NCBI GenBank assembly: GCA_013154175.1
Contig: JAADCZ010000060.1
Span: 7,530 to 71,529, forward strand
Source of the DNA: Thermodesulfobacteriota bacterium
GTDB lineage: Bacteria; Desulfobacterota; Dissulfuribacteria; Dissulfuribacterales; QOAL01
Length of the DNA stretch: 64,000 bases
Direction of reading: 5' to 3'
A program made the translations under genes and the position numbers. The first letter of the stretch is position 1; each line of letters opens with the position of its first letter. The notes under the pieces are model-generated. The model was not told the DNA's origin, ran no database searches, and worked only from the letters and a program-made list of their open reading frames with translations. Of this stretch, positions 25,213 to 62,901 are shown piece by piece.

Positions 25213-25645
25213 TACAAACGATATATTTGAGGTGCTGAATCTGCTGCCTCACAGGTATCCGTTTCTGCTTGTGGACAGGATTGTCGAGTTTGAGCCTGAT
25301 GAGTATATAAGAGGCTACAAGAATGTGACCATAAACGAGCCCTTTTTTCAGGGTCACTTTCCTGGAGAACCCATAATGCCTGGCGTACTGATACTAGAGG
25401 CCATGGCACAGCTTGGCATTTTGTTTGCGAAAAAGACAGCGCCAGAGGAGCTGGAAGACAAGCTCTTTGTGTTCGCAGGCATGGACGGCGTCAGGTTCAG
25501 ACGGCCTGTCAGGCCTGGGGACAGGCTCGACATGGAGCTTAGGCTTGTGAAGAAAAAGAGACTCGTGTGGAAAATGGAAGGAACTGCGTCAGTGGATGGA
25601 AAGACCGCTGTCGAGGCGATTCTCATGGCAGCAGTTTCCAGATAG
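25199..25645 (+). CDS. fabZ: 3-hydroxyacyl-ACP dehydratase FabZ
   Basis: [13 protein letters not shown]...[19 protein letters not shown] signature. Confidence 0.95.
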
Positions 25646-25703: not shown

Positions 25704-26516
25704 ATGTCAGCACAGAACAGTACAAACAACATTCATCCTACAGCAGTGGTGGACCCTGCCTGTAGGCTAGGCAATAACGTGACTGTCGGCCCCTACACAG
25801 TTTTGGGGCCGCACGTCGAGGTGGGCGACAACTGCTGGTTGGGGCCCCATGTAGTCATAGACGGAAAGACCACAATAGGTGCAAATTGCCAGATTTTTCA
25901 GTTCTCATCCATAGGTGCAGCGCCCCAGGACATCACCTACAAGGGTGAGCTCACCTCGGTGGAGATTGGCGAATCTACAATCATCCGCGAAAGCGTCACC
26001 ATTCACAGGGGCACGCCCAAGGGTGGTGGGCTCACCAAGGTGGGCAAGCAGTGCATGATCATGGCATACTGTCACATTGCCCATGATTGCAAATTGGGTG
26101 ACGGGGTAATCATGGCGAATGTGGCAACCCTTGGTGGCCATGTGGAAATTGGTGACCATGCAGTAATCGGCGGGCTTTCTGCAATCCATCAATTTTGTCA
26201 CATTGGGAAATATGCCTTCCTAGGGGGCATGTCTGGTGCCAACAAGGACATTCCACCCTTTGTGAAGTACCAGGGGCAGAGGTCCAACCTTCATGGCATA
26301 AACGTGCTTGGGCTAAGAAGGGCAGGATTCTCCAAAGAGACCATAGAAATGCTGCGGGAGGCCTACAGGATAGTGTTCAAAAAGGCGGCCACAATCACCG
26401 AGGGGCTCGATCTTGCTGACGCCGCGTTTCCCGACAGCCCAGAGGTCAAGGAATTCACTGATTTTATAAGAAATTCAAAAAGAGGCGTGCCTGCCGGGGA
26501 ATGGAATCAGGATTAA
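25704..26516 (+). CDS. lpxA: acyl-ACP--UDP-N-acetylglucosamine O-acyltransferase LpxA
   Basis: Hexapeptide-repeat N-terminal domain and helical C-terminal domain (NLHGINVLGLRRAGFS). Confidence 0.9.
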   Translation: MSAQNSTNNIHPTAVVDPACRLGNNVTVGPYTVLGPHVEVGDNCWLGPHVVIDGKTTIGANCQIFQFSSIGAAPQDITYKGELTSVEIGESTIIRESVTIHRGTPKGGGLTKVGKQCMIMAYCHIAHDCKLGDGVIMANVATLGGHVEIGDHAVIGGLSAIHQFCHIGKYAFLGGMSGANKDIPPFVKYQGQRSNLHGINVLGLRRAGFSKETIEMLREAYRIVFKKAATITEGLDLADAAFPDSPEVKEFTDFIRNSKRGVPAGEWNQD

Positions 26517-42984: not shown

Positions 42985-43061
42985 CGGGGCGTGGCGCAGT
43001 CTGGTAGCGCATCTGCTTTGGGAGCAGAGGGCCGGGGGTTCAAATCCCTCCGCCCCGACCA
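42985..43061 (+). tRNA. tRNA-Pro (anticodon TGG), CCA encoded
   Basis: The cloverleaf folds by hand: acceptor CGGGGCG/CGCCCCG, D arm GCGC..GCGC, anticodon arm TCTGC-TTTGGGA-GCAGA, T arm GGGGG-TTCAAAT-CCCTC, then discriminator A and CCA. Confidence 0.95.
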
Positions 43062-44152: not shown

Positions 44153-46078
44153 ATGTCAGGCATATTGGATAAAATAAATAGTCCGCAGGATTTAAAAAAT
44201 CTCAGCCAAAAGGAGCTTAATGAGCTCGCTAAAGAGATTAGACATACCATAGTGACGACAGTTGCGGAAAAGGGCGGTCATCTGGCTCCAAGCCTCGGGG
44301 TTGTGGAGCTCACCCTTGCCCTTCATTACTGTTTCGAATCCCCCAAAGACAAAATCATCTGGGACGTTGGCCATCAGGCCTATGCCCACAAACTGATTAC
44401 AGGCAGGAGGGACCGTTTTTCCACCTTGAGACAGCAGGATGGAATCAGCGGCTTCCCAAAGAGGTCCGAGAGTGAACATGACATTCTGGATACCGGGCAC
44501 AGTAGTACATCCATATCTGCCGCACTGGGTATCACCACGGCCCTGTCCCTCCTGGGCAAGGAAGGTAAGGTCGTGGCTGTGATCGGGGATGGTTCCATGA
44601 CTGCAGGCCTGGCATTTGAGGCCCTAAACAATGCAGGCCACTTGCGCAAGGATCTGATAGTCGTCCTAAACGATAATGAGATGTCGATATCCCCCAATGT
44701 GGGTGCCCTTTCCTCCTTTCTAAGCCGAAAGCTCACAAGCAGGCTGGCAACCAAGCTGAAGCGGGACCTCGAATCGTTCTTGAAGCGTTCAGAGGTTGGT
44801 GAAAACATTTGGCAGGTGCTGAAAAAGAGTGAGGATTCCCTGAAAAGTCTCTTGACCCCTGGGATGCTCTTTGAAGCCTTGCAGTTTGAGTATGTGGGGC
44901 CAATTCCGGGGCATCATATAGATACCTTGATCGAGACCTTTGAAAACGTGAAAAACGTTCCCGGGCCGGTTTTGGTGCATGTTCTTACCAAGAAGGGCAA
45001 GGGATATCCGCCTGCAGAGGAACATCCAGACCTGTTTCATGGCCTTGGTCCCTTTGACATCAAGACTGGCAAGCCCAAGAAATCCTCTGCCCCTAAGCCG
45101 CCGTCCTACACCGAGATCTTTGGGCAAACAGTGGTGAGACTTGCCAAGGAAGACTCAAAGATAGTTGGCATTACTGCGGCAATGCCAGCAGGCACGGGTC
45201 TTAAGGCCCTTCAGGAGGCGGTGCCAGACAGATTCTTTGACGTGGGTATCGCAGAGCAGCATGCAGTGACCTTTGCAGCGGGCATGGCCCTGGAAGGGCT
45301 CAAGCCAATTGTCGCTATCTATTCCACGTTTCTCCAAAGGGCCTTCGATCAGATAATTCATGACGTGTGCCTTACCAATCTTCCTGTGGTCTTTGCCCTC
45401 GATAGGGGAGGCCTTGTAGGGGATGACGGGCCAACCCACCACGGCGTCTTTGACCTGTCTTATCTGAGAATGATACCAAATATGGTTGTAATGGCCCCGA
45501 AGGATGAGAATGAGCTTCAGCACATGCTCTTTACTGCAGTCAAGCACAATGGGCCAGCAGCTGTTCGTTACCCCAGGGGCAATGGAGTGGGGGTAAGCCT
45601 CGACTGGCAGCTAAAGGAACTAGAGATTGGCAAGGCCGAGCTTCTAAGAGAGGGGAAAGACGTGGCCATCTGGGCCATTGGACATCATGTCCAGACTGCC
45701 ATGTTGGCAGCCGAGGAGCTAGAAAAGGAAGGAATAGAGGCAGCTGTGATAAATGCACGGTTTGTCAAGCCCCTGGATGTCAAGTTGCTTGACAAGACTG
45801 CCAAGGAATGTGGCAAGGTCGTCACCATTGAAGAAAACGTTTTGAAGGGTGGTTTTGGCTCTGCCATTTTGGAGGAACTGTCCAACATGGGTCTGGAGCA
45901 GGTAAAGGTGAAACGTCTGGGGCTTCCTGACAGGTTCGTTGAGCATGGAAGCCAGGAGCTTTTGAGGAAACAGGTTGGTCTGGACGTGGATTCGGTGGTT
46001 AAGGCCAGTAAGGAGCTCGTCAAAGGCGAAAAGGGCGAAGGAGTAGGGCAGACAAAGGTGCATTCCCTTTCTGTCTAA
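44153..46078 (+). CDS. dxs: 1-deoxy-D-xylulose-5-phosphate synthase
   Basis: [16 protein letters not shown]-terminus, [12 protein letters not shown], ThDP motif GDGSMTAG...NDN and a transketolase-like C-terminal domain. The start at 44153 avoids overlap with ispA. Confidence 0.95.
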
Positions 46079-46106
46079 CGTTCGTCTTCAGGCTTTGAAA
46101 TGCAAA

Positions 46107-46146
46107 ATGACGTGGCAGATGTGTCAAAATGCCACGTCATTTTTTT
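46107..46146 (+). terminator. rho-independent terminator of ispA-dxs
   Basis: Perfect 11-bp stem ATGACGTGGCA/TGCCACGTCAT with a 12-nt loop, followed by TTTTTT. Confidence 0.85.
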
Positions 46147-46345
46147 GACTGAATATTTTTTGTCACACTAAATTTCAAATAAGCAAATCATACTTTAAAT
46201 AGTTTTTCCCATGGATTAGGCGATGTTTGTTTATCTTGTCTAATTATGATTTAATTTCTCTTTTTTTTACTAAAAGCCACTTTTTTCCTCTTCTTTCACC
46301 CCTTTTATTAAAAAAATCAAAAGTAATTTTTATGTTTTTCGATTT

Positions 46346-46361
46346 TGGCATACTCGTTGCA
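46346..46361 (+). promoter_or_regulatory. near-consensus sigma-54 (RpoN) promoter
   Basis: TGGCAT-ACTCG-TTGCA versus the consensus TGGCAC-N5-TTGCW, with correct GG/GC spacing. It sits in an AT-rich intergenic tract about 70 nt upstream of an SD+ATG. Confidence 0.65.
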
Positions 46362-46429
46362 TTTATTAAGAATCAAACAGAGACGGAAACGTGGATTGGT
46401 TAATTCTGACCGAAAACAGGAGTTAGGCT

Positions 46430-46552
46430 ATGATGTACTGTCTTAAAAATCCCAATAGGCGCACGCAGCCAGCTATCTGTAACAACTGTAAGCGGAAATG
46501 TGAAAGGGCAGGTAAACGTCAAAACAAGGGTAAGACCAGGAGTACGCGATAA
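46430..46552 (+). CDS. hypothetical 40-aa cysteine-containing, highly basic micro-protein (below the ORF-track threshold)
   Basis: SD AGGAG (46418-46422) lies 7 nt before ATGATG. Translation: MMYCLKNPNRRTQPAICNNCKRKCERAGKRQNKGKTRSTR, stop TAA at 46550-46552. 4 Cys and 13 Lys/Arg. Confidence 0.45.
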   Translation: MMYCLKNPNRRTQPAICNNCKRKCERAGKRQNKGKTRSTR

Positions 46553-46602
46553 CTCATTGATTTTATGAAAACAAGCCGGGGAGTGGCCATCAGCCTCCTC
46601 CT

Positions 46603-47457
46603 TTAAGTCTTGGCACGGGTTTCCTTAGATTCAATTGCCAAAACAGCTTCTTCTCCGCCAGAAAAACTTTCTTCATTTGATGGAAACTTCCCGGCTTCTA
46701 CCTCTTCTTTGAAGGTCAAAAATGCCTCTTTAATCTGAGGTGCAAGATTTACATACTTTCTTACAAATTTTGGGGTAAATTTCTCGAATAACCCAATCAT
46801 GTCATGGGTCACCAGGACCTGGCCGTCACACTTGTCTCCTGCTCCTATGCCAATGGTTGGGATGTCAATGGAGCGCGTGATAAGGGCAGCCAGGGCGGTG
46901 GGCACACACTCGAGCACAATGGCGAAGGCCCCGGCATCCGCTACTGCCAAGGCATCTTCGTAGATGCGTTTGGCAGCATCGAAGTCTCTTCCCTGCACTT
47001 TGTAGCCCCCTAGGCTGGAGGCTGTCTGTGGTGTGAGACCTACATGCCCCACAACTGGAATACCAGCCGCTACGAGGCAGCTGATTGTTTCTGCAAAGTG
47101 GCTTCCCCCTTCGAGCTTTACTGCATCACACCCGGCCTCTTTGAGGAATCTGCCTGCATTCCTTAGGGCATCCTCTTTACTTGTCTGATAAGACATGAAG
47201 GGCATATCCCCGACTACCAGTGCATGTTCCACTGCACGACTTACTGCCCGGCAGTGGTGGAGCATCTCGTCCATTGTCACTGGTACAGTAGAATCATAAC
47301 CCAGGACAACCATGCCCAGGGAGTCCCCCACCAGTATCATGTCTATGCCGCATTGGTCGATTAGGCTTGCAAAGTGATAGTCATAGGCCGTAAGCATGGT
47401 AAGCTTTGGGCCCTTGGTCTTTCTTTCCTTGATGTCAACGGGAGTAAGTCTTGGCAT
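46603..47457 (-). CDS. panB: 3-methyl-2-oxobutanoate hydroxymethyltransferase
   Basis: MLTAYDY...LVGDSLGMV...VKLEGG motifs. SD AGGAG lies directly after the rnpB 3' end. Confidence 0.95.
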   Translation of the reverse strand: MPRLTPVDIKERKTKGPKLTMLTAYDYHFASLIDQCGIDMILVGDSLGMVVLGYDSTVPVTMDEMLHHCRAVSRAVEHALVVGDMPFMSYQTSKEDALRNAGRFLKEAGCDAVKLEGGSHFAETISCLVAAGIPVVGHVGLTPQTASSLGGYKVQGRDFDAAKRIYEDALAVADAGAFAIVLECVPTALAALITRSIDIPTIGIGAGDKCDGQVLVTHDMIGLFEKFTPKFVRKYVNLAPQIKEAFLTFKEEVEAGKFPSNEESFSGGEEAVLAIESKETRAKT

Positions 47458-47479: not shown

Positions 47480-47853
47480 GGTCCTCGAGAGGGCTATAAG
47501 CCGGGTTCTGTATTCCAGCACAAGCTGGAACGATGATCATTCATCTAGGATGTCGGTCGCCCGACACCTCAAGCAACCTACCCGGAGACTCGGACGGGCC
47601 GCCCTCGAACGTCTCCCTATTTGGTCTTGCTCCAGGTGGGGTTTACCAAGCCTGCAAGGTCACCCTTGCAGCTGGTGAGCTCTTACCTCACCTTTTCACC
47701 CTTACCACACTTGAGTGTGGCGGTCTGTTTTCTGTGGCACTTTCCCTGGGGTTGCCCCCGGTTCGTGTTACGAACCACCTTGCCCTGTGGAGCCCGGACT
47801 TTCCTCCTGCCCGTCAATGCGGGCAGGCGATCATCCACCCTCTACGAAGGACC
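47480..47853 (-). ncRNA. rnpB: RNase P RNA, bacterial type A
   Basis: The reverse complement contains the universal blocks GGAGGAAAGTCCGGGCTCCACAGGGCA, GGTAAGGGTGAAAAGGTGAGGTAAGAGCTCACC, GGTAAACCCCACCTGGAGCAAGACCAAATAGGG, CCGGGTAGGTTGCTTGAG, CCTAGATGAATGA and ACAGAACCCGGCTTAT. These are nearly colinear with E. coli M1 RNA. P1 pairs GGTCCTTCGTAGAGGG with CCCTCTCGAGGACC. Ends are accurate to a few nt. Confidence 0.95.
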
Positions 47854-47869
47854 ACTAATAAGTTAATTA

Positions 47870-48589
47870 CTATGTCCCAGTCTTCAATGCGTAAATTATC
47901 CTCTGGCAGGAGGGGCAGAAAAGTATCCTCTCCTCCCTAAGGAGCTCATTGAACATTTGGGGTGGAATGTTCATGTTGCAGGCACTGCAGACGCCCTCAT
48001 CGACAGCTGCCACCACAAGGCCTGCCCTCTTGTCTGCCAGGAACCTGTACTTGGCTAAGAGGTCTGGCTTCACTTCCTTTTCCACCTCGTTGCGTTCCTT
48101 TGTAAGGGCATCGATCTTTGCGTCGTATTCCTTTTCGGCAGCGGCGATTCTCTTCTGTTCTGCGTCAGCCTCCTTCTGGAAGCCCTCTATCTCAGCCTTT
48201 TTCTTGTCAATTTCGCCCTTGAGCTGCTCTATCTGTTCCTCAAGCTGGAGAATTTCATCCTCCCTGGCCTTGTTGGCCTTTTTAATCTCCTCGATTTCCT
48301 TGGAAAGGGCCTGGAACTCGCGGTTGGTCTTAACAGCTGTAAGTTTCTGCTGGGATTTTTTCAGCCGTTCAAGCTCGAGTTCCAGTTCGTCTTCCACCTC
48401 TGTCTTCCTGGTTCGTAGGTCGGCGAGCTTGTCCTTTAACTCTTCAATCTCCCTATTTTTTTCCTCGATTGTCTCATTAAGTGCGTTGAATCTCTCTGGA
48501 AGTTTCTCCTTTTCCGCCTTGAGCTTTCTGATCTCAAGATCGATTCCTTGTAGCCTAATGAGTACTGATAGTTCCGGTTTCAATGTCAC
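47870..48589 (-). CDS. coiled-coil protein with C-terminal C4 zinc ribbon (COG1579/DUF164 family)
   Basis: Long heptad-rich region, then CSACNMNIPPQ...CPSCQRII. Located next to the Nif3 gene, as is commonly seen. Confidence 0.8.
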   Translation of the reverse strand: MTLKPELSVLIRLQGIDLEIRKLKAEKEKLPERFNALNETIEEKNREIEELKDKLADLRTRKTEVEDELELELERLKKSQQKLTAVKTNREFQALSKEIEEIKKANKAREDEILQLEEQIEQLKGEIDKKKAEIEGFQKEADAEQKRIAAAEKEYDAKIDALTKERNEVEKEVKPDLLAKYRFLADKRAGLVVAAVDEGVCSACNMNIPPQMFNELLREERILFCPSCQRIIYALKTGT

Positions 48590-49582: not shown

Positions 49583-49656
49583 TGGGCCCACCAGGATTCG
49601 AACCTGGGACCAACCGGTTATGAGCCGGTGGCTCTGACCAACTGAGCTATGGGCCC
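49583..49656 (-). tRNA. tRNA with CAT anticodon (elongator tRNA-Met, or tRNA-Ile2 if lysidine-modified); CCA not encoded
   Basis: Reverse complement GGGCCCA-TA-GCTC-AGTTGGTCA-GAGC-C-ACCGG-CTCATAA-CCGGT-TGGTC-CCAGG-TTCGAAT-CCTGG-TGGGCCC-A folds as a canonical cloverleaf. It is not initiator-like (1:72 is paired). Confidence 0.9.
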
Positions 49657-61470: not shown

Positions 61471-62901
61471 TTAACCCTTTATCACTGCCAATGGTTTTAG
61501 TAATGCCACCTTTTTGGCCAGACCAGCTTCGTGGGTGACCTCTACAACCTTCCTCACATCCTTATAGGCATCGGGGGCCTCTTCAGCCGCTCCTCTAAGA
61601 CTTGCTGCCTTGAGGATTATTCCCTGTTTCCTAAGGGCGTTTATGACCCCTTTGCCCTTCCACCGTTTCAAGGCTGCCCGGCGGCTCATGGATCTGCCAG
61701 CACCATGACATGCGCTGCCCCAGGCCAGCTCTTCACCACTTTCGGTTCCTGCCAAGATGTATGAGCAGGTTCCCATGGTGCCGCCTATAAAAATTGGTTG
61801 ACCTACATGTTTGTATTTCTTGGGAAGCTCCCTGTGACCCGGGCCAAAGGCCCGTGTCGCCCCCTTCCTGTGCACAAAAAGTTTGCGCATTTTACCACCA
61901 ACTTCATGCTTTTCAACTTTACACGTATTGTGGCTAACGTCGTAAATAAGCTCAAACTCTGCACTGGGAATAACCCTCTGTACCGCCAGCCTTGCAAGAT
62001 GCCCCAGCACCTGCCTGTTGGCTAAAGCACAGTTTATGCCACATGCCACGGCCTTCATATAGTCGCTGCCCTCTGGGGATTTGATTGGGGCACATACCAG
62101 TTCCCTTTCCCTGATGGGGATGGCGTACTTCTTGGCAGCGGCTCCAAGTATTTGAAGATAGTCTGTGCCAATCTGGTGCCCAAGGGCCCTGGAGCCACAA
62201 TGTATGGAAACAACTACATCGTCCTCTTCCAGACCAAAGGCAGAGGCGCACTCCTTGTCATAGATTTTTTCAACGTATTGGACCTCGAGATAGTGGTTGC
62301 CTGAACCCAGTGTGCCTATCTGTTTCTTTTGTCTATCCTTGGCTAGTTTTGATACCTTGGAAGGGTCTGCATCCTTTATGCGGCCCCGTTCCTCGATGTA
62401 TTCCAGTTCGTCCTTGGTCCCATAGCCTTTGTCGATTGCCCACAAGGCGCCATTTCTCAGTACGTCGTCTAGTTTTGAGGCGGAAAGTTTGATCTTTCCT
62501 GTTGAGCCAACTCCAGCCGGTATGGAACGAAACAGCTCGTCCATGAGCTCATCCAACTTTGGCAGCAGCCTCTGCCTTTTGAGCCCGAGCCTGTGGCATC
62601 TGACCCCGCACGAGATGTCGTAACCCACTCCGCCCACGGAAATCACACCGCCCTGGTCTGGGTCGAAGGCAGCAACTCCGCCAATGGGGAATCCGTAGCC
62701 CCAGTGGGCATCTGGCATTGCCATCGCCCCCTTAACGATCCCTGGCAGGGAAGCCACATTGGTAAGCTGCTGCATGACCTTGTCATCCATTTCTGTGAGC
62801 AGATCGTTGTTTGCAAAGATATATCCAGGCACGCGCATTGTGCCTTCTTGGGGAATCTCCCATATGCAGCTTGAAATCCTTTTTAGTTTGCCTTTGTCCA
62901 T
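61471..62901 (-). CDS. rtcB: RNA 3'-phosphate ligase RtcB
   Basis: Metal/GMP-site motifs MPDAHWGYGFPIGG, GYDISCG, HCGSRALGHQ and GSACHGAGR. Confidence 0.95.
   Translation of the reverse strand: MDKGKLKRISSCIWEIPQEGTMRVPGYIFANNDLLTEMDDKVMQQLTNVASLPGIVKGAMAMPDAHWGYGFPIGGVAAFDPDQGGVISVGGVGYDISCGVRCHRLGLKRQRLLPKLDELMDELFRSIPAGVGSTGKIKLSASKLDDVLRNGALWAIDKGYGTKDELEYIEERGRIKDADPSKVSKLAKDRQKKQIGTLGSGNHYLEVQYVEKIYDKECASAFGLEEDDVVVSIHCGSRALGHQIGTDYLQILGAAAKKYAIPIRERELVCAPIKSPEGSDYMKAVACGINCALANRQVLGHLARLAVQRVIPSAEFELIYDVSHNTCKVEKHEVGGKMRKLFVHRKGATRAFGPGHRELPKKYKHVGQPIFIGGTMGTCSYILAGTESGEELAWGSACHGAGRSMSRRAALKRWKGKGVINALRKQGIILKAASLRGAAEEAPDAYKDVRKVVEVTHEAGLAKKVALLKPLAVIKG

What the first reader, a model, noticed from the sequence alone, without database searches (positions are those of the whole stretch)
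46147..46602. AT-rich gap with a near-consensus sigma-54 promoter driving an unannotated 40-aa Cys4, highly basic micro-ORF
The 456-nt dxs/panB gap is visibly much more AT-rich than the surrounding genes. It contains TGGCAT-N5-TTGCA (46346-46361), an almost perfect -24/-12 RpoN promoter. About 55 nt downstream of the expected start site there is a canonical SD (AGGAG), then 7 nt, then ATGATG, opening a 40-codon frame (MMYCLKNPNRRTQPAICNNCKRKCERAGKRQNKGKTRSTR). The peptide has four cysteines (C4, C17-x2-C20-x3-C24) and 13 of 40 Lys/Arg residues, which resembles a small metal-binding or nucleic-acid-binding peptide. I recognise no family. It is invisible to a 60-aa ORF cutoff. No enhancer-binding protein gene is adjacent, and about 200 nt of AT-rich DNA lies upstream where an activator/IHF site would sit. 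The transcript could instead be a sigma-54-dependent sRNA with an incidental ORF.
Basis: partly seen in the sequence, partly recalled or inferred. Interest (0 to 1): 0.7.

Follow-up and report, generated by a model that had tools for sequence, protein, structure and literature searches.

The report
Conserved sigma-54-driven Cys4 microprotein gene
The AT-rich gap between dxs and panB holds a real, unannotated gene for a 39-40-residue, four-cysteine, very basic protein. It comes with its own sigma-54 promoter and an upstream activator-binding box, and the whole unit is conserved in about 30 related uncultured sulfur bacteria, but its function is unknown.

Summary

- **Promoter.** TGGCATACTCGTTGCA (46346-46361) is the only TGGCAY-N5-TTGCW match in 64 kb.
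- **Coding gene.** The 40-codon ORF (46430/46433-46552) recurs in 31 distinct sequences from Thermodesulfobacteriota metagenomes and MAGs. All 28 third codon positions of the core vary, against 11 first and 12 second positions. pN/pS is 0.11, and Arg codons switch between AGR and CGN. This is a protein-coding gene, not an incidental ORF in an sRNA.
- **Promoter conservation.** 26 of 31 loci carry a ≥9/11 sigma-54 element 40-140 nt upstream of the ATG; shuffles give 0.23.
- **Upstream box.** An unbiased dyad scan found GTCA-N6-TGAC 96-348 nt upstream of the promoter. In the window it is at 46136-46149, the only copy in 64 kb. It matches published FleQ/FlrA-type activator boxes.
- **Protein.** C3, K5, R9, C16, C19, R21, C23, A26 and G27 are invariant, including in longer homologues in phage-like replication modules. 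Pfam, NCBIfam, PDB and Rfam give no match.

Function is inferred only: probably a metal-stabilised, nucleic-acid-binding regulator in a sigma-54/FleQ-like regulon.

The parts
46104..46143 (+). dxs intrinsic-terminator hairpin (AAAAUGACGUGGCA...UGCCACGUCAUUUU) followed by a T-run. Its 3' arm overlaps the activator box.
   Evidence: dG -20.7 kcal/mol, z -3.85. The stem sequence is conserved in close relatives, with one G-C to A-T compensatory change in L089.
46136..46149 (.). Candidate upstream activator sequence GTCATTTTTTTGAC (GTCA-N6-TGAC palindrome, FleQ/FlrA-type box), 197 nt upstream of the -24 element.
   Evidence: It is the only GTCA-N6-TGAC in 64 kb. The dyad is present in 14 of 23 representative upstream regions; the next best dyad is in 6, and shuffles give a mean of 0.055. 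Alignment. Literature match: yGTCA-N6-TGACr for DVU2894 (PMC4641369) and GTCaNTAAAtTGAC for FleQ (quoted in PMC6120874).
46150..46168 (.). Remnant of a second conserved site. Relatives have TGTGAC-N6-GYCACA 3-4 nt after the first box; the window keeps only the right half, GTCACAC, at 46162-46168.
   Evidence: alignment (L004, L086-L089, L098, L104).
46169..46345 (.). AT-rich spacer (about 78% A+T in the 120 nt before the promoter) between the activator box and the promoter. A DNA-bending role is presumed.
   Evidence: No E. coli-type IHF consensus was found.
46346..46361 (+). Sigma-54 (-24/-12) promoter TGGCATACTCGTTGCA. GG is at 46347-46348 and GC at 46359-46360. The predicted transcription start is near 46372 (inferred).
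   Evidence: In 29 distinct orthologous promoters GG is 29/29, the A after GGY is 29/29, TTG is 29/29 and the C of GC is 27/29. The base before GG is variable, which fits sigma-54 rather than a sigma-70 -35 element.
46372..46429 (+). Predicted 5' UTR with Shine-Dalgarno AGGAG at 46418-46422.
   Evidence: All orthologues have a purine-rich SD 5-10 nt before the ATG. The whole transcript is not unusually structured (z +1.1).
46430..46552 (+). Microprotein CDS of 40 codons from 46430, or 39 from 46433, which is the family's start. Conserved 29-residue Cys4 core (C-x12-C-x2-C-x3-C) plus a variable Lys/Arg-rich tail.
46578..46603 (.). Weak hairpin (GGGGAG...CUCCUU) shared with convergent panB; a likely bidirectional terminator.
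   Evidence: dG -11 kcal/mol, not better than shuffles. The element occurs only in loci where panB is the convergent neighbour. On the minus strand it is followed by a U-rich run.

Best explanation
The gap holds a self-contained small gene with four parts: an upstream activator box (GTCA-N6-TGAC, 46136-46149), about 200 nt of AT-rich DNA, a sigma-54 -24/-12 promoter (46346-46361), and a leader of about 60 nt with a Shine-Dalgarno site feeding a 39/40-codon ORF. The product is a microprotein with an invariant C-x12-C-x2-C-x3-C core and a Lys/Arg-rich tail.

Shown by comparative analysis:
- The ORF is translated and under purifying selection.
- The promoter and the box are conserved with it.

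Inferred:
- Transcription needs RpoN and an enhancer-binding ATPase bound at the box. Because the box matches published FleQ/FlrA/DVU2894-type sites, the activator is most likely a FleQ-like motility/biofilm master regulator encoded elsewhere in the genome.
- The four cysteines hold a metal (most likely Zn) that folds the 29-residue core.
- The basic surface and tail bind a nucleic acid or a nucleic-acid machine (RNA, DNA, ribosome or RNA polymerase), so the protein acts in trans as a small regulator of that regulon.

My probabilities for the separate steps:
- Real coding gene: 0.95.
- Sigma-54/EBP dependence: 0.85.
- FleQ/FlrA-type activator: 0.4.
- Metal-stabilised nucleic-acid binder: 0.35.
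For: **Coding.**
- In 12 distinct sequences, the 29-codon core has variable columns 5/5/28 by codon position, with AGA to CGN arginine switches.
- In 31 distinct cores, the counts are 11/12/28, with mean pS 0.89, pN 0.10 and pN/pS 0.11. Each of the five other reading frames contains a stop in 12-27 of the 31 sequences.
- The peptide core is better conserved than the neighbouring panB, which is 71-79% identical.
- Gene callers independently called the ORF on other contigs (P0001, P0002, P0003, P0004, P0013).

**Promoter.**
- A ≥9/11 match with GG-N10-GC lies 40-140 nt upstream of the ATG in 26 of 31 loci; shuffles give a mean of 0.23 and a maximum of 2.

**Activator box.**
- An unbiased scan of all 4-mer dyads put GTCA-N6-TGAC far ahead of every other dyad (14 of 23 regions).
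- It is the single copy in the window.
- In 924 kb of fetched loci, every pairing of this box with a sigma-54 element lies upstream of the micro-ORF. About 70 panB loci without the gene gave no such pairing.

**Literature.** The same motif is predicted for the FlrA/FleQ-like DVU2894 (PMC4641369) and proposed for FleQ (PMC6120874 quoting Baraquet & Harwood 2016).

**Protein.**
- Invariant C3, K5, R9, C16, C19, R21, C23, A26 and G27 extend to distant homologues.
- Longer homologues sit next to SSB, DNA ligase and helicase genes in phage-like replication modules.
Against: - There are no expression, TSS, rpoN or proteomic data. The one proteomics paper on a cultured carrier has no supplementary files held.
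- No EBP, rpoN or flagellar gene lies in the window or in any fetched locus. The FleQ link therefore rests on motif similarity across phyla. The Pseudomonas ChIP-seq study found that the proposed FleQ consensus predicts binding poorly genome-wide (PMC6120874).
- Only 14 of 23 representative loci have the exact box. L095 and L097 carry different repeats.
- Dissulfuribacter thermophilus has the gene without a sigma-54 element.
- The AlphaFold model is low-confidence (pLDDT 61), so neither fold nor metal site is supported structurally.
- The Cys spacing has only one CxxC knuckle, unlike a classical zinc ribbon.
Confidence: 0.7

Rival explanations
1. The transcript is a sigma-54-dependent non-coding or dual-function sRNA, and the ORF is incidental or secondary.
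For: - It is a stand-alone short transcript with its own promoter and no co-directional downstream gene.
- Sigma-54-dependent sRNAs are known, for example glmY and the ncRNA target of DVU2359 listed in PMC4641369.
Against: - The codon-position pattern is 11/12/28, pN/pS is 0.11, and synonymous AGR-to-CGN switches occur.
- The 5' UTR and 3' region diverge freely while the peptide is kept.
- The transcript is no more structured than shuffles (z +1.1).
- Rfam gives no match.
- A secondary base-pairing role cannot be excluded.
Confidence: 0.05
2. The gene is real and sigma-54-dependent, but the activator is not FleQ-like. The box would belong to another EBP, so the regulon would not be motility or biofilm. 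One example is a NifA-type site, since TGTCA-N6-TGACA also fits TGT-N10-ACA. Another is a lineage-specific one-component EBP.
For: - Six of 23 sites extend to TGTC-N8-GACA, which is compatible with TGT-N10-ACA.
- No flagellar genes are nearby.
- The FleQ consensus is a weak predictor of binding in Pseudomonas.
- L095 and L097 carry different upstream repeats.
Against: - The conserved core is GTCA/TGAC with an A/T-rich spacer. This matches the FleQ/FlrA/DVU2894 motif exactly.
- The outer T and A needed for a NifA site are not conserved; yGTCA is seen.
Confidence: 0.3
3. The microprotein is a ribosome-associated or ribosomal-protein-like factor: a small basic Zn protein in the manner of bL36, bL31 or bS22, made under a specific condition.
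For: - It is 36-40 residues long with about one third Lys/Arg, and its local ICxNCK string recalls bL36 (own knowledge).
- Its extreme conservation, higher than that of neighbouring enzymes, suggests a conserved macromolecular partner.
Against: - No hit to Ribosomal_L36 or any Pfam or NCBIfam ribosomal family, even at E ≤ 10.
- No PDB sequence hit, although the PDB holds many ribosome structures.
- The Cys spacing differs from bL36's C-x2-C-x12-C-x4-H.
- Homologues sit in phage replication modules.
Confidence: 0.12
4. The main role of the promoter is to drive antisense or convergent transcription into the 3' end of the opposing housekeeping operon (panB, or tsaD-rseP-dxr), with the ORF as a passenger.
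For: - The ORF always converges tightly on another gene: 50 nt stop-to-stop here and 6-19 nt in L107, L111 and L117.
- The 3' hairpin is weak.
Against: - The convergent partner differs between lineages (panB versus Zn_ribbon_3/tsaD) while the peptide is invariant.
- Purifying selection acts on the peptide.
Confidence: 0.05
5. It is a precursor of a modified or secreted peptide (RiPP-like), with the conserved N-terminal part as leader and the variable tail as core.
For: - It is a short Cys-containing peptide with a conserved N-terminal block and a variable C-terminus.
Against: - No maturase, radical-SAM enzyme, protease or transporter gene is a conserved neighbour.
- The cysteines lie in the conserved block, not in the variable part.
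- The tail is merely basic.
- There is no signal sequence.
Confidence: 0.03

Closest known systems
FleQ/FlrA-type sigma-54 promoters (Pseudomonas FleQ box GTCaNTAAAtTGAC; Desulfovibrio DVU2894 predicted site yGTCA-N6-TGACr)
   Same: The 14-bp inverted repeat is the same, with an A/T-rich spacer. It lies upstream of a GG-N10-GC sigma-54 promoter, and activation would occur from a distance.
   Different: The target here is a stand-alone 39-aa gene amid housekeeping genes, not a flagellar or exopolysaccharide operon. The activator has not been identified. The phylum is different, and no experiment exists.
glmY/glmZ-type stand-alone sigma-54 genes with GlrR/QseF sites (TGTC-N10-GACA) (own knowledge)
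   Same: Both are short, orphan transcription units driven by sigma-54, with palindromic TGTC/GACA-like activator sites upstream and AT-rich bending DNA in between.
   Different: Those products are non-coding RNAs. Here the product is a protein under amino-acid selection, and the half-site spacing differs (N6 between GTCA and TGAC).
Small Cys4/Cys3His zinc-binding basic proteins (ribosomal bL36, zinc-ribbon microproteins)
   Same: Similar size (36-40 aa), four invariant metal-ligand-type residues, and a very high Lys/Arg content.
   Different: No sequence-profile match to any such family. It has only one CxxC knuckle, with spacing C-x12-C-x2-C-x3-C. No confident structure is available.
phrog_5259 and unnamed 51-83-aa homologues in phage-like or mobile elements
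   Same: They share the CxK..R.T.P.IC.NC.R.C..AG core. Several members give weak, recurrent hits to phrog_5259 (E 0.005-0.07).
   Different: These homologues have N- or C-terminal extensions and are embedded in operons (SSB, ligase, helicase, TnpB neighbours) without a sigma-54 promoter. Their function is also unknown.

Membership tests
Sigma-54 (RpoN)-dependent promoter | Invariant GG and GC doublets exactly 10 nt apart within a TGGCAC-N5-TTGCW context | tested here: met
   TGGCATACTCGTTGCA scores 10/11. In 29 distinct orthologous promoters GG is 29/29, TTG is 29/29 and C is 27/29.
Sigma-54 (RpoN)-dependent promoter | Conserved in orthologous regions beyond chance, at a consistent distance from the gene | tested here: met
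   26 of 31 loci against 0.23 in shuffles. The -12 element lies 36-104 nt from the ATG, median 65.
Sigma-54 (RpoN)-dependent promoter | Upstream enhancer-like binding site for an AAA+ activator | tested here: met
   A GTCA-N6-TGAC box lies 96-348 nt upstream. That an EBP binds it is inferred.
Sigma-54 (RpoN)-dependent promoter | Transcription abolished without RpoN or the EBP; start site about 12 nt after the GC | not testable with these tools
   No expression data are available.
FleQ/FlrA regulon member | FleQ-type box (GTCA, A/T-rich 6-mer, TGAC) in the promoter region | tested here: met
   GTCATTTTTTTGAC at 46136-46149. Relatives carry GTCAATTTAATGAC, GTCAAAATTTTGAC and similar. These were compared with the motifs in PMC4641369 and PMC6120874.
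FleQ/FlrA regulon member | A FleQ/FlrA orthologue is present, and the same box is found upstream of flagellar operons in the same genomes | not tested
Zinc ribbon / zinc-finger microprotein | Four invariant Cys/His ligands | tested here: met
   C3, C16, C19 and C23 are invariant in 21 and in 14 aligned sequences, including distant homologues.
Zinc ribbon / zinc-finger microprotein | Two CxxC/CxxH knuckles, or a profile or fold match to a known zinc-binding family | tested here: not met
   There is only one CxxC. No Pfam, NCBIfam or PDB match was found. The AF2 model has pLDDT 61.
Ribosomal protein bL36 | Match to PF00444 and the C-x2-C-x12-C-x4-H motif | tested here: not met
   No Pfam hit at E ≤ 10, and the Cys spacing is different.
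Non-coding sRNA (any Rfam family) | Covariance-model match, or conservation without codon periodicity | tested here: not met
   No meaningful Rfam hit (best E 0.19-0.35, all to eukaryotic families). Codon periodicity is strong.

The most novel reading that the evidence does not exclude
The microprotein defines a new minimal Cys4 nucleic-acid-binding module. It is shared between phage replication modules and a chromosomal gene that a clade of Thermodesulfobacteriota has placed under a FleQ-like/sigma-54 switch. On this reading it would be a previously unknown output or feedback regulator of the motility/biofilm decision, for example by binding sigma-54 RNA polymerase, its activator, or flagellar mRNAs.
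Probability: 0.15. Interest if true: 0.75.

Novelty: new member of a known kind. Interest (0 to 1): 0.55.

Why it matters
Proteins under 50 residues are routinely missed. The JGI annotation of this contig calls nothing in the gap, and only about a dozen family members exist in a 5.8-billion-protein collection.

This microprotein is more conserved than the essential enzymes beside it. It also comes with a complete, readable regulatory module of activator box, sigma-54 promoter and SD. That gives a testable handle on what a sigma-54/FleQ-like regulon controls in poorly studied hydrothermal sulfur bacteria. It also defines a new small Cys4 domain that is shared with phage replication modules.

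The regulation itself is textbook sigma-54 architecture. The novelty lies in the protein family and its unknown role.

Tried and rejected
- **Rfam.** Permissive search of the gap and gathering-threshold search of the whole window gave only noise in the gap.
- **Protein libraries.** Pfam, NCBIfam and PDB sequence and profile searches on the peptide and on 8 distant homologues gave nothing. PHROGs gave only a weak, recurrent hit to phrog_5259, of unknown function.
- **Structure.** AlphaFold2 with a 14-sequence alignment gave pLDDT 61, so I ran no fold search.
- **Phage collections.** An IMG/VR scan with the family alignment and a tblastn of P0009 against GenBank phages both found no relatives.
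- **Exact-sequence lookup.** The window peptide is not on record in the contig collection.
- **IHF site.** The E. coli IHF consensus WATCAANNNNTTR occurs between box and promoter in only 3 of 28 loci, and not in the window.
- **Motif grep for related genes.** EBP (GAFTGA plus Walker A), RpoN-box and flagellar rod motifs were absent from all 118 fetched sequences.
- **3' element.** The GCCGGGGAG...CCTCCTCC sequence first looked like a gene-specific element or an anti-SD mimic. It is confined to loci where panB is the convergent neighbour, and it folds no better than shuffles. I read it as a shared bidirectional terminator.
- **Sigma-70 reading of TTGGCA-17-AAGAAT.** Rejected. In orthologues the GG, A and TTGC positions are invariant while the -35-type leading T and any -10 hexamer are not.
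- **Literature.** Strings of the peptide give no hits. FgrM papers give no motif. The Dissulfuribacter proteomics paper has no held supplements.

Full report
**1. What is in the sequence**

The window matches a JGI metagenome contig (3300005095, Ga0072504_107595), whose annotation calls no gene between dxs and panB.
- dxs (+) ends at 46078. panB (-) occupies 46603-47457.
- GC drops to about 0.30 across 46100-46400, against 0.50-0.57 in the flanking genes.
- TGGCATACTCGTTGCA lies at 46346-46361. AGGAG is at 46418-46422. ATGATG opens a 40-codon frame at 46430 that ends at 46552.
- The promoter string is the only TGGCAY-N5-TTGCW match in the window (0.25 expected).
- With a relaxed ≥9/11 criterion the window has 15 matches, mostly inside genes. 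The single match therefore proves little by itself.

**2. The ORF is a real gene**

A search of 5.8 billion proteins found two called homologues of 37-38 aa. tblastn of panB-anchored loci from 80 genomes found the ORF beside panB in all nine closest relatives (L002-L010; panB 71-79% identical), and in no more distant locus. A metagenome scan added 22 loci.

Codon-level evidence on the 29-codon core:
- In 12 distinct sequences, variable columns by codon position are 5/5/28, with arginine switching between AGA/AGG and CGN.
- In 31 distinct sequences the counts are 11/12/28, with mean pS 0.89, pN 0.10 and pN/pS 0.11. Each of the five other reading frames contains a stop in 12-27 of the 31 sequences.

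It excludes an incidental ORF. All orthologues begin M-x-C, so 46433 corresponds to the family's start. The window has one extra in-frame ATG with better SD spacing.

**3. The promoter is conserved**

In 26 of 31 loci, a ≥9/11 match with the GG and GC doublets in place lies 40-140 nt upstream of the ATG. Shuffles give a mean of 0.23 and a maximum of 2.

In 29 distinct promoters GG, the A after GGY, and TTG are invariant, and the C of GC is 27/29. The surrounding sequence and the base before GG vary. That pattern fits sigma-54 and not the sigma-70-like TTGGCA-17-AAGAAT reading from the simple scan.

Exceptions:
- L006 and L007 carry TTGT in place of TTGC.
- Dissulfuribacter thermophilus DBT_0496, the only cultured carrier found, has no -24/-12 element. 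It has a TTGACA-like hexamer and a non-basic tail.

**4. An upstream activator box**

I scanned every 4-mer inverted dyad with spacers of 0-12 nt in 23 representative upstream regions.
- GTCA-N6-TGAC stood out: 14 regions, against 6 for the next dyad. Shuffles give 0.055 for this dyad and at most 8 for any dyad.
- The box lies 96-348 nt upstream of the -24 element and occurs in lineages whose flanks are otherwise unalignable.
- Several lineages carry a second palindrome, TGTGAC-N6-GYCACA, 3-4 nt further on.
- In the window the box is GTCATTTTTTTGAC at 46136-46149. It is the only copy in 64 kb. It overlaps the 3' arm and T-run of the dxs terminator hairpin.
- Across 924 kb of fetched loci, every pairing of this box with a sigma-54 element within 420 nt lies upstream of the micro-ORF: 24 hits in 16 distinct loci, and none elsewhere. 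This includes about 70 panB loci that lack the gene.

**5. Which activator**

Kazakov et al. (PMC4641369) predicted yGTCA-N6-TGACr as the site of DVU2894. They describe this EBP as FlrA/FleQ-like and co-expressed with flagellar genes, and they note a related repeat in the Vibrio FlrA-bound region. The FleQ consensus proposed for Pseudomonas aeruginosa is GTCaNTAAAtTGAC, and for P. putida GTCAaAAAAtTGAC (quoted in PMC6120874). The boxes here also have A/T-rich spacers and match.

This is a lead, not proof:
- The Pseudomonas ChIP-seq paper stresses that the consensus predicts binding poorly genome-wide.
- No EBP, rpoN or flagellar gene lies in the window or in any fetched locus.
- L095 and L097 carry GGTTCA/TGAACC repeats in place of the box.

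**6. The protein**

Profile searches of 1.84 billion representatives and of the 5.8-billion set found 13 family members in all. C3, K5, R9, C16, C19, R21, C23, A26 and G27 are invariant.

The chromosomal form:
- It is 35-49 aa long, with a conserved core and a tail that is basic in all but the Dissulfuribacter member.
- It usually sits just downstream of ispA-dxs, converging on either panB-rnpB-CT398-NIF3 or Zn_ribbon_3-tsaD-rseP-dxr.
- It has no conserved functional partner.

Longer forms (51-83 aa):
- Some lie inside phage-like replication modules, between DNA ligase and a helicase or directly before SSB.
- Others lie in small-ORF elements that carry an IS605-type TnpB.

No Pfam, NCBIfam or PDB match exists. 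Only a weak, repeated hit to phrog_5259, of unknown function, was found. AlphaFold gave pLDDT 61. Metal binding and nucleic-acid binding are therefore inferences. They rest on four invariant cysteines, one third Lys/Arg, conservation exceeding that of the neighbouring enzymes, and the phage replication context.

**7. RNA-level features**

- The predicted transcript is not unusually structured (z +1.1).
- The 5' UTRs diverge.
- The 3' hairpin (46578-46603) is weak and is seen only where panB is the convergent gene. It is probably a shared bidirectional terminator.

**8. Verdict**

This is an unannotated, strongly conserved gene for a Cys4 basic microprotein. It has a sigma-54 promoter and a FleQ-type upstream box. 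It is restricted, as far as these searches reach, to some Thermodesulfobacteriota lineages, with relatives in phage-like and other mobile elements.

- The regulatory architecture is standard. The protein family is new, and its function is open.
- I rate it a new member of a known kind (a small cysteine-rich protein gene under sigma-54/EBP control), with interest 0.55.
- The most novel reading not excluded is a new minimal nucleic-acid-binding module recruited as an output or feedback element of a FleQ-like switch. I give that about 0.15 probability.

Noticed in passing
window 47481-47847 (-): A bacterial class A RNase P RNA (342 bits) lies between panB and the next gene. The order NIF3 - CT398-like - rnpB - panB is kept in about 15 related loci.
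   Followed up: partly
window 47870-48589 (-): A CT398-like coiled-coil plus C4 Zn_ribbon_9 protein. From my own knowledge, members of this family (Chlamydia CT398, Helicobacter HP0958/FlgZ) bind RpoN. It lies 1.3 kb from the sigma-54 promoter. The synteny is widespread, so this may be coincidence.
   Followed up: no
window 25414-25429 (+): A second intergenic sigma-54-like element, TGGCATTTTGTTTGCG (9/11), lies about 290 nt upstream of ORF 25704-26516. No GTCA-N6-TGAC box accompanies it.
   Followed up: no
window 61471-62901 (-): An RtcB RNA ligase gene. It is often RtcR/sigma-54-controlled in other bacteria, but I saw no RtcR or strong sigma-54 element in the window.
   Followed up: no
L004, L086-L089, L098 and L104 (alignment); window 46162-46168: A second conserved palindrome, TGTGAC-N6-GYCACA, follows the GTCA-N6-TGAC box by 3-4 nt in several lineages. 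The window retains only the right half (GTCACAC).
   Followed up: partly
L095 and L097, about 20-110 nt upstream of their sigma-54 elements: These two loci lack the GTCA box. They carry tandem or inverted GGTTCA/TGAACC repeats instead, which suggests rewiring to a different activator.
   Followed up: no
L108 6001-6189; L109 2196-2393; L114 1180-1431: Homologues of 51-83 aa with the same Cys4 core lie in phage-like replication modules (DNA ligase/helicase, SSB, ParB, DnaB) and in small-ORF elements with an IS605 TnpB. P0008 adds a C-terminal double zinc ribbon.
   Followed up: partly
L107 5899-6150 (Dissulfuribacter thermophilus MAGO01000002.1): The cultured species carries the gene (DBT_0496, 49 aa). 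It has no -24/-12 element, a TTGACA-like hexamer in its place, and a non-basic C-terminal tail.
   Followed up: partly
5' UTRs of L002-L005 and L088: A shared block, TTTGGRCAAAGACATTA-like, lies between the promoter and the SD in the closest relatives. The window has only a loose counterpart (GGATTGGTTAATTCTGACC, 46392-46410). It remains unexplained.
   Followed up: no
window 42985-43058 (+) and 49583-49656 (-): Two tRNA genes flank the ispA-dxs ... NIF3 block.
   Followed up: no
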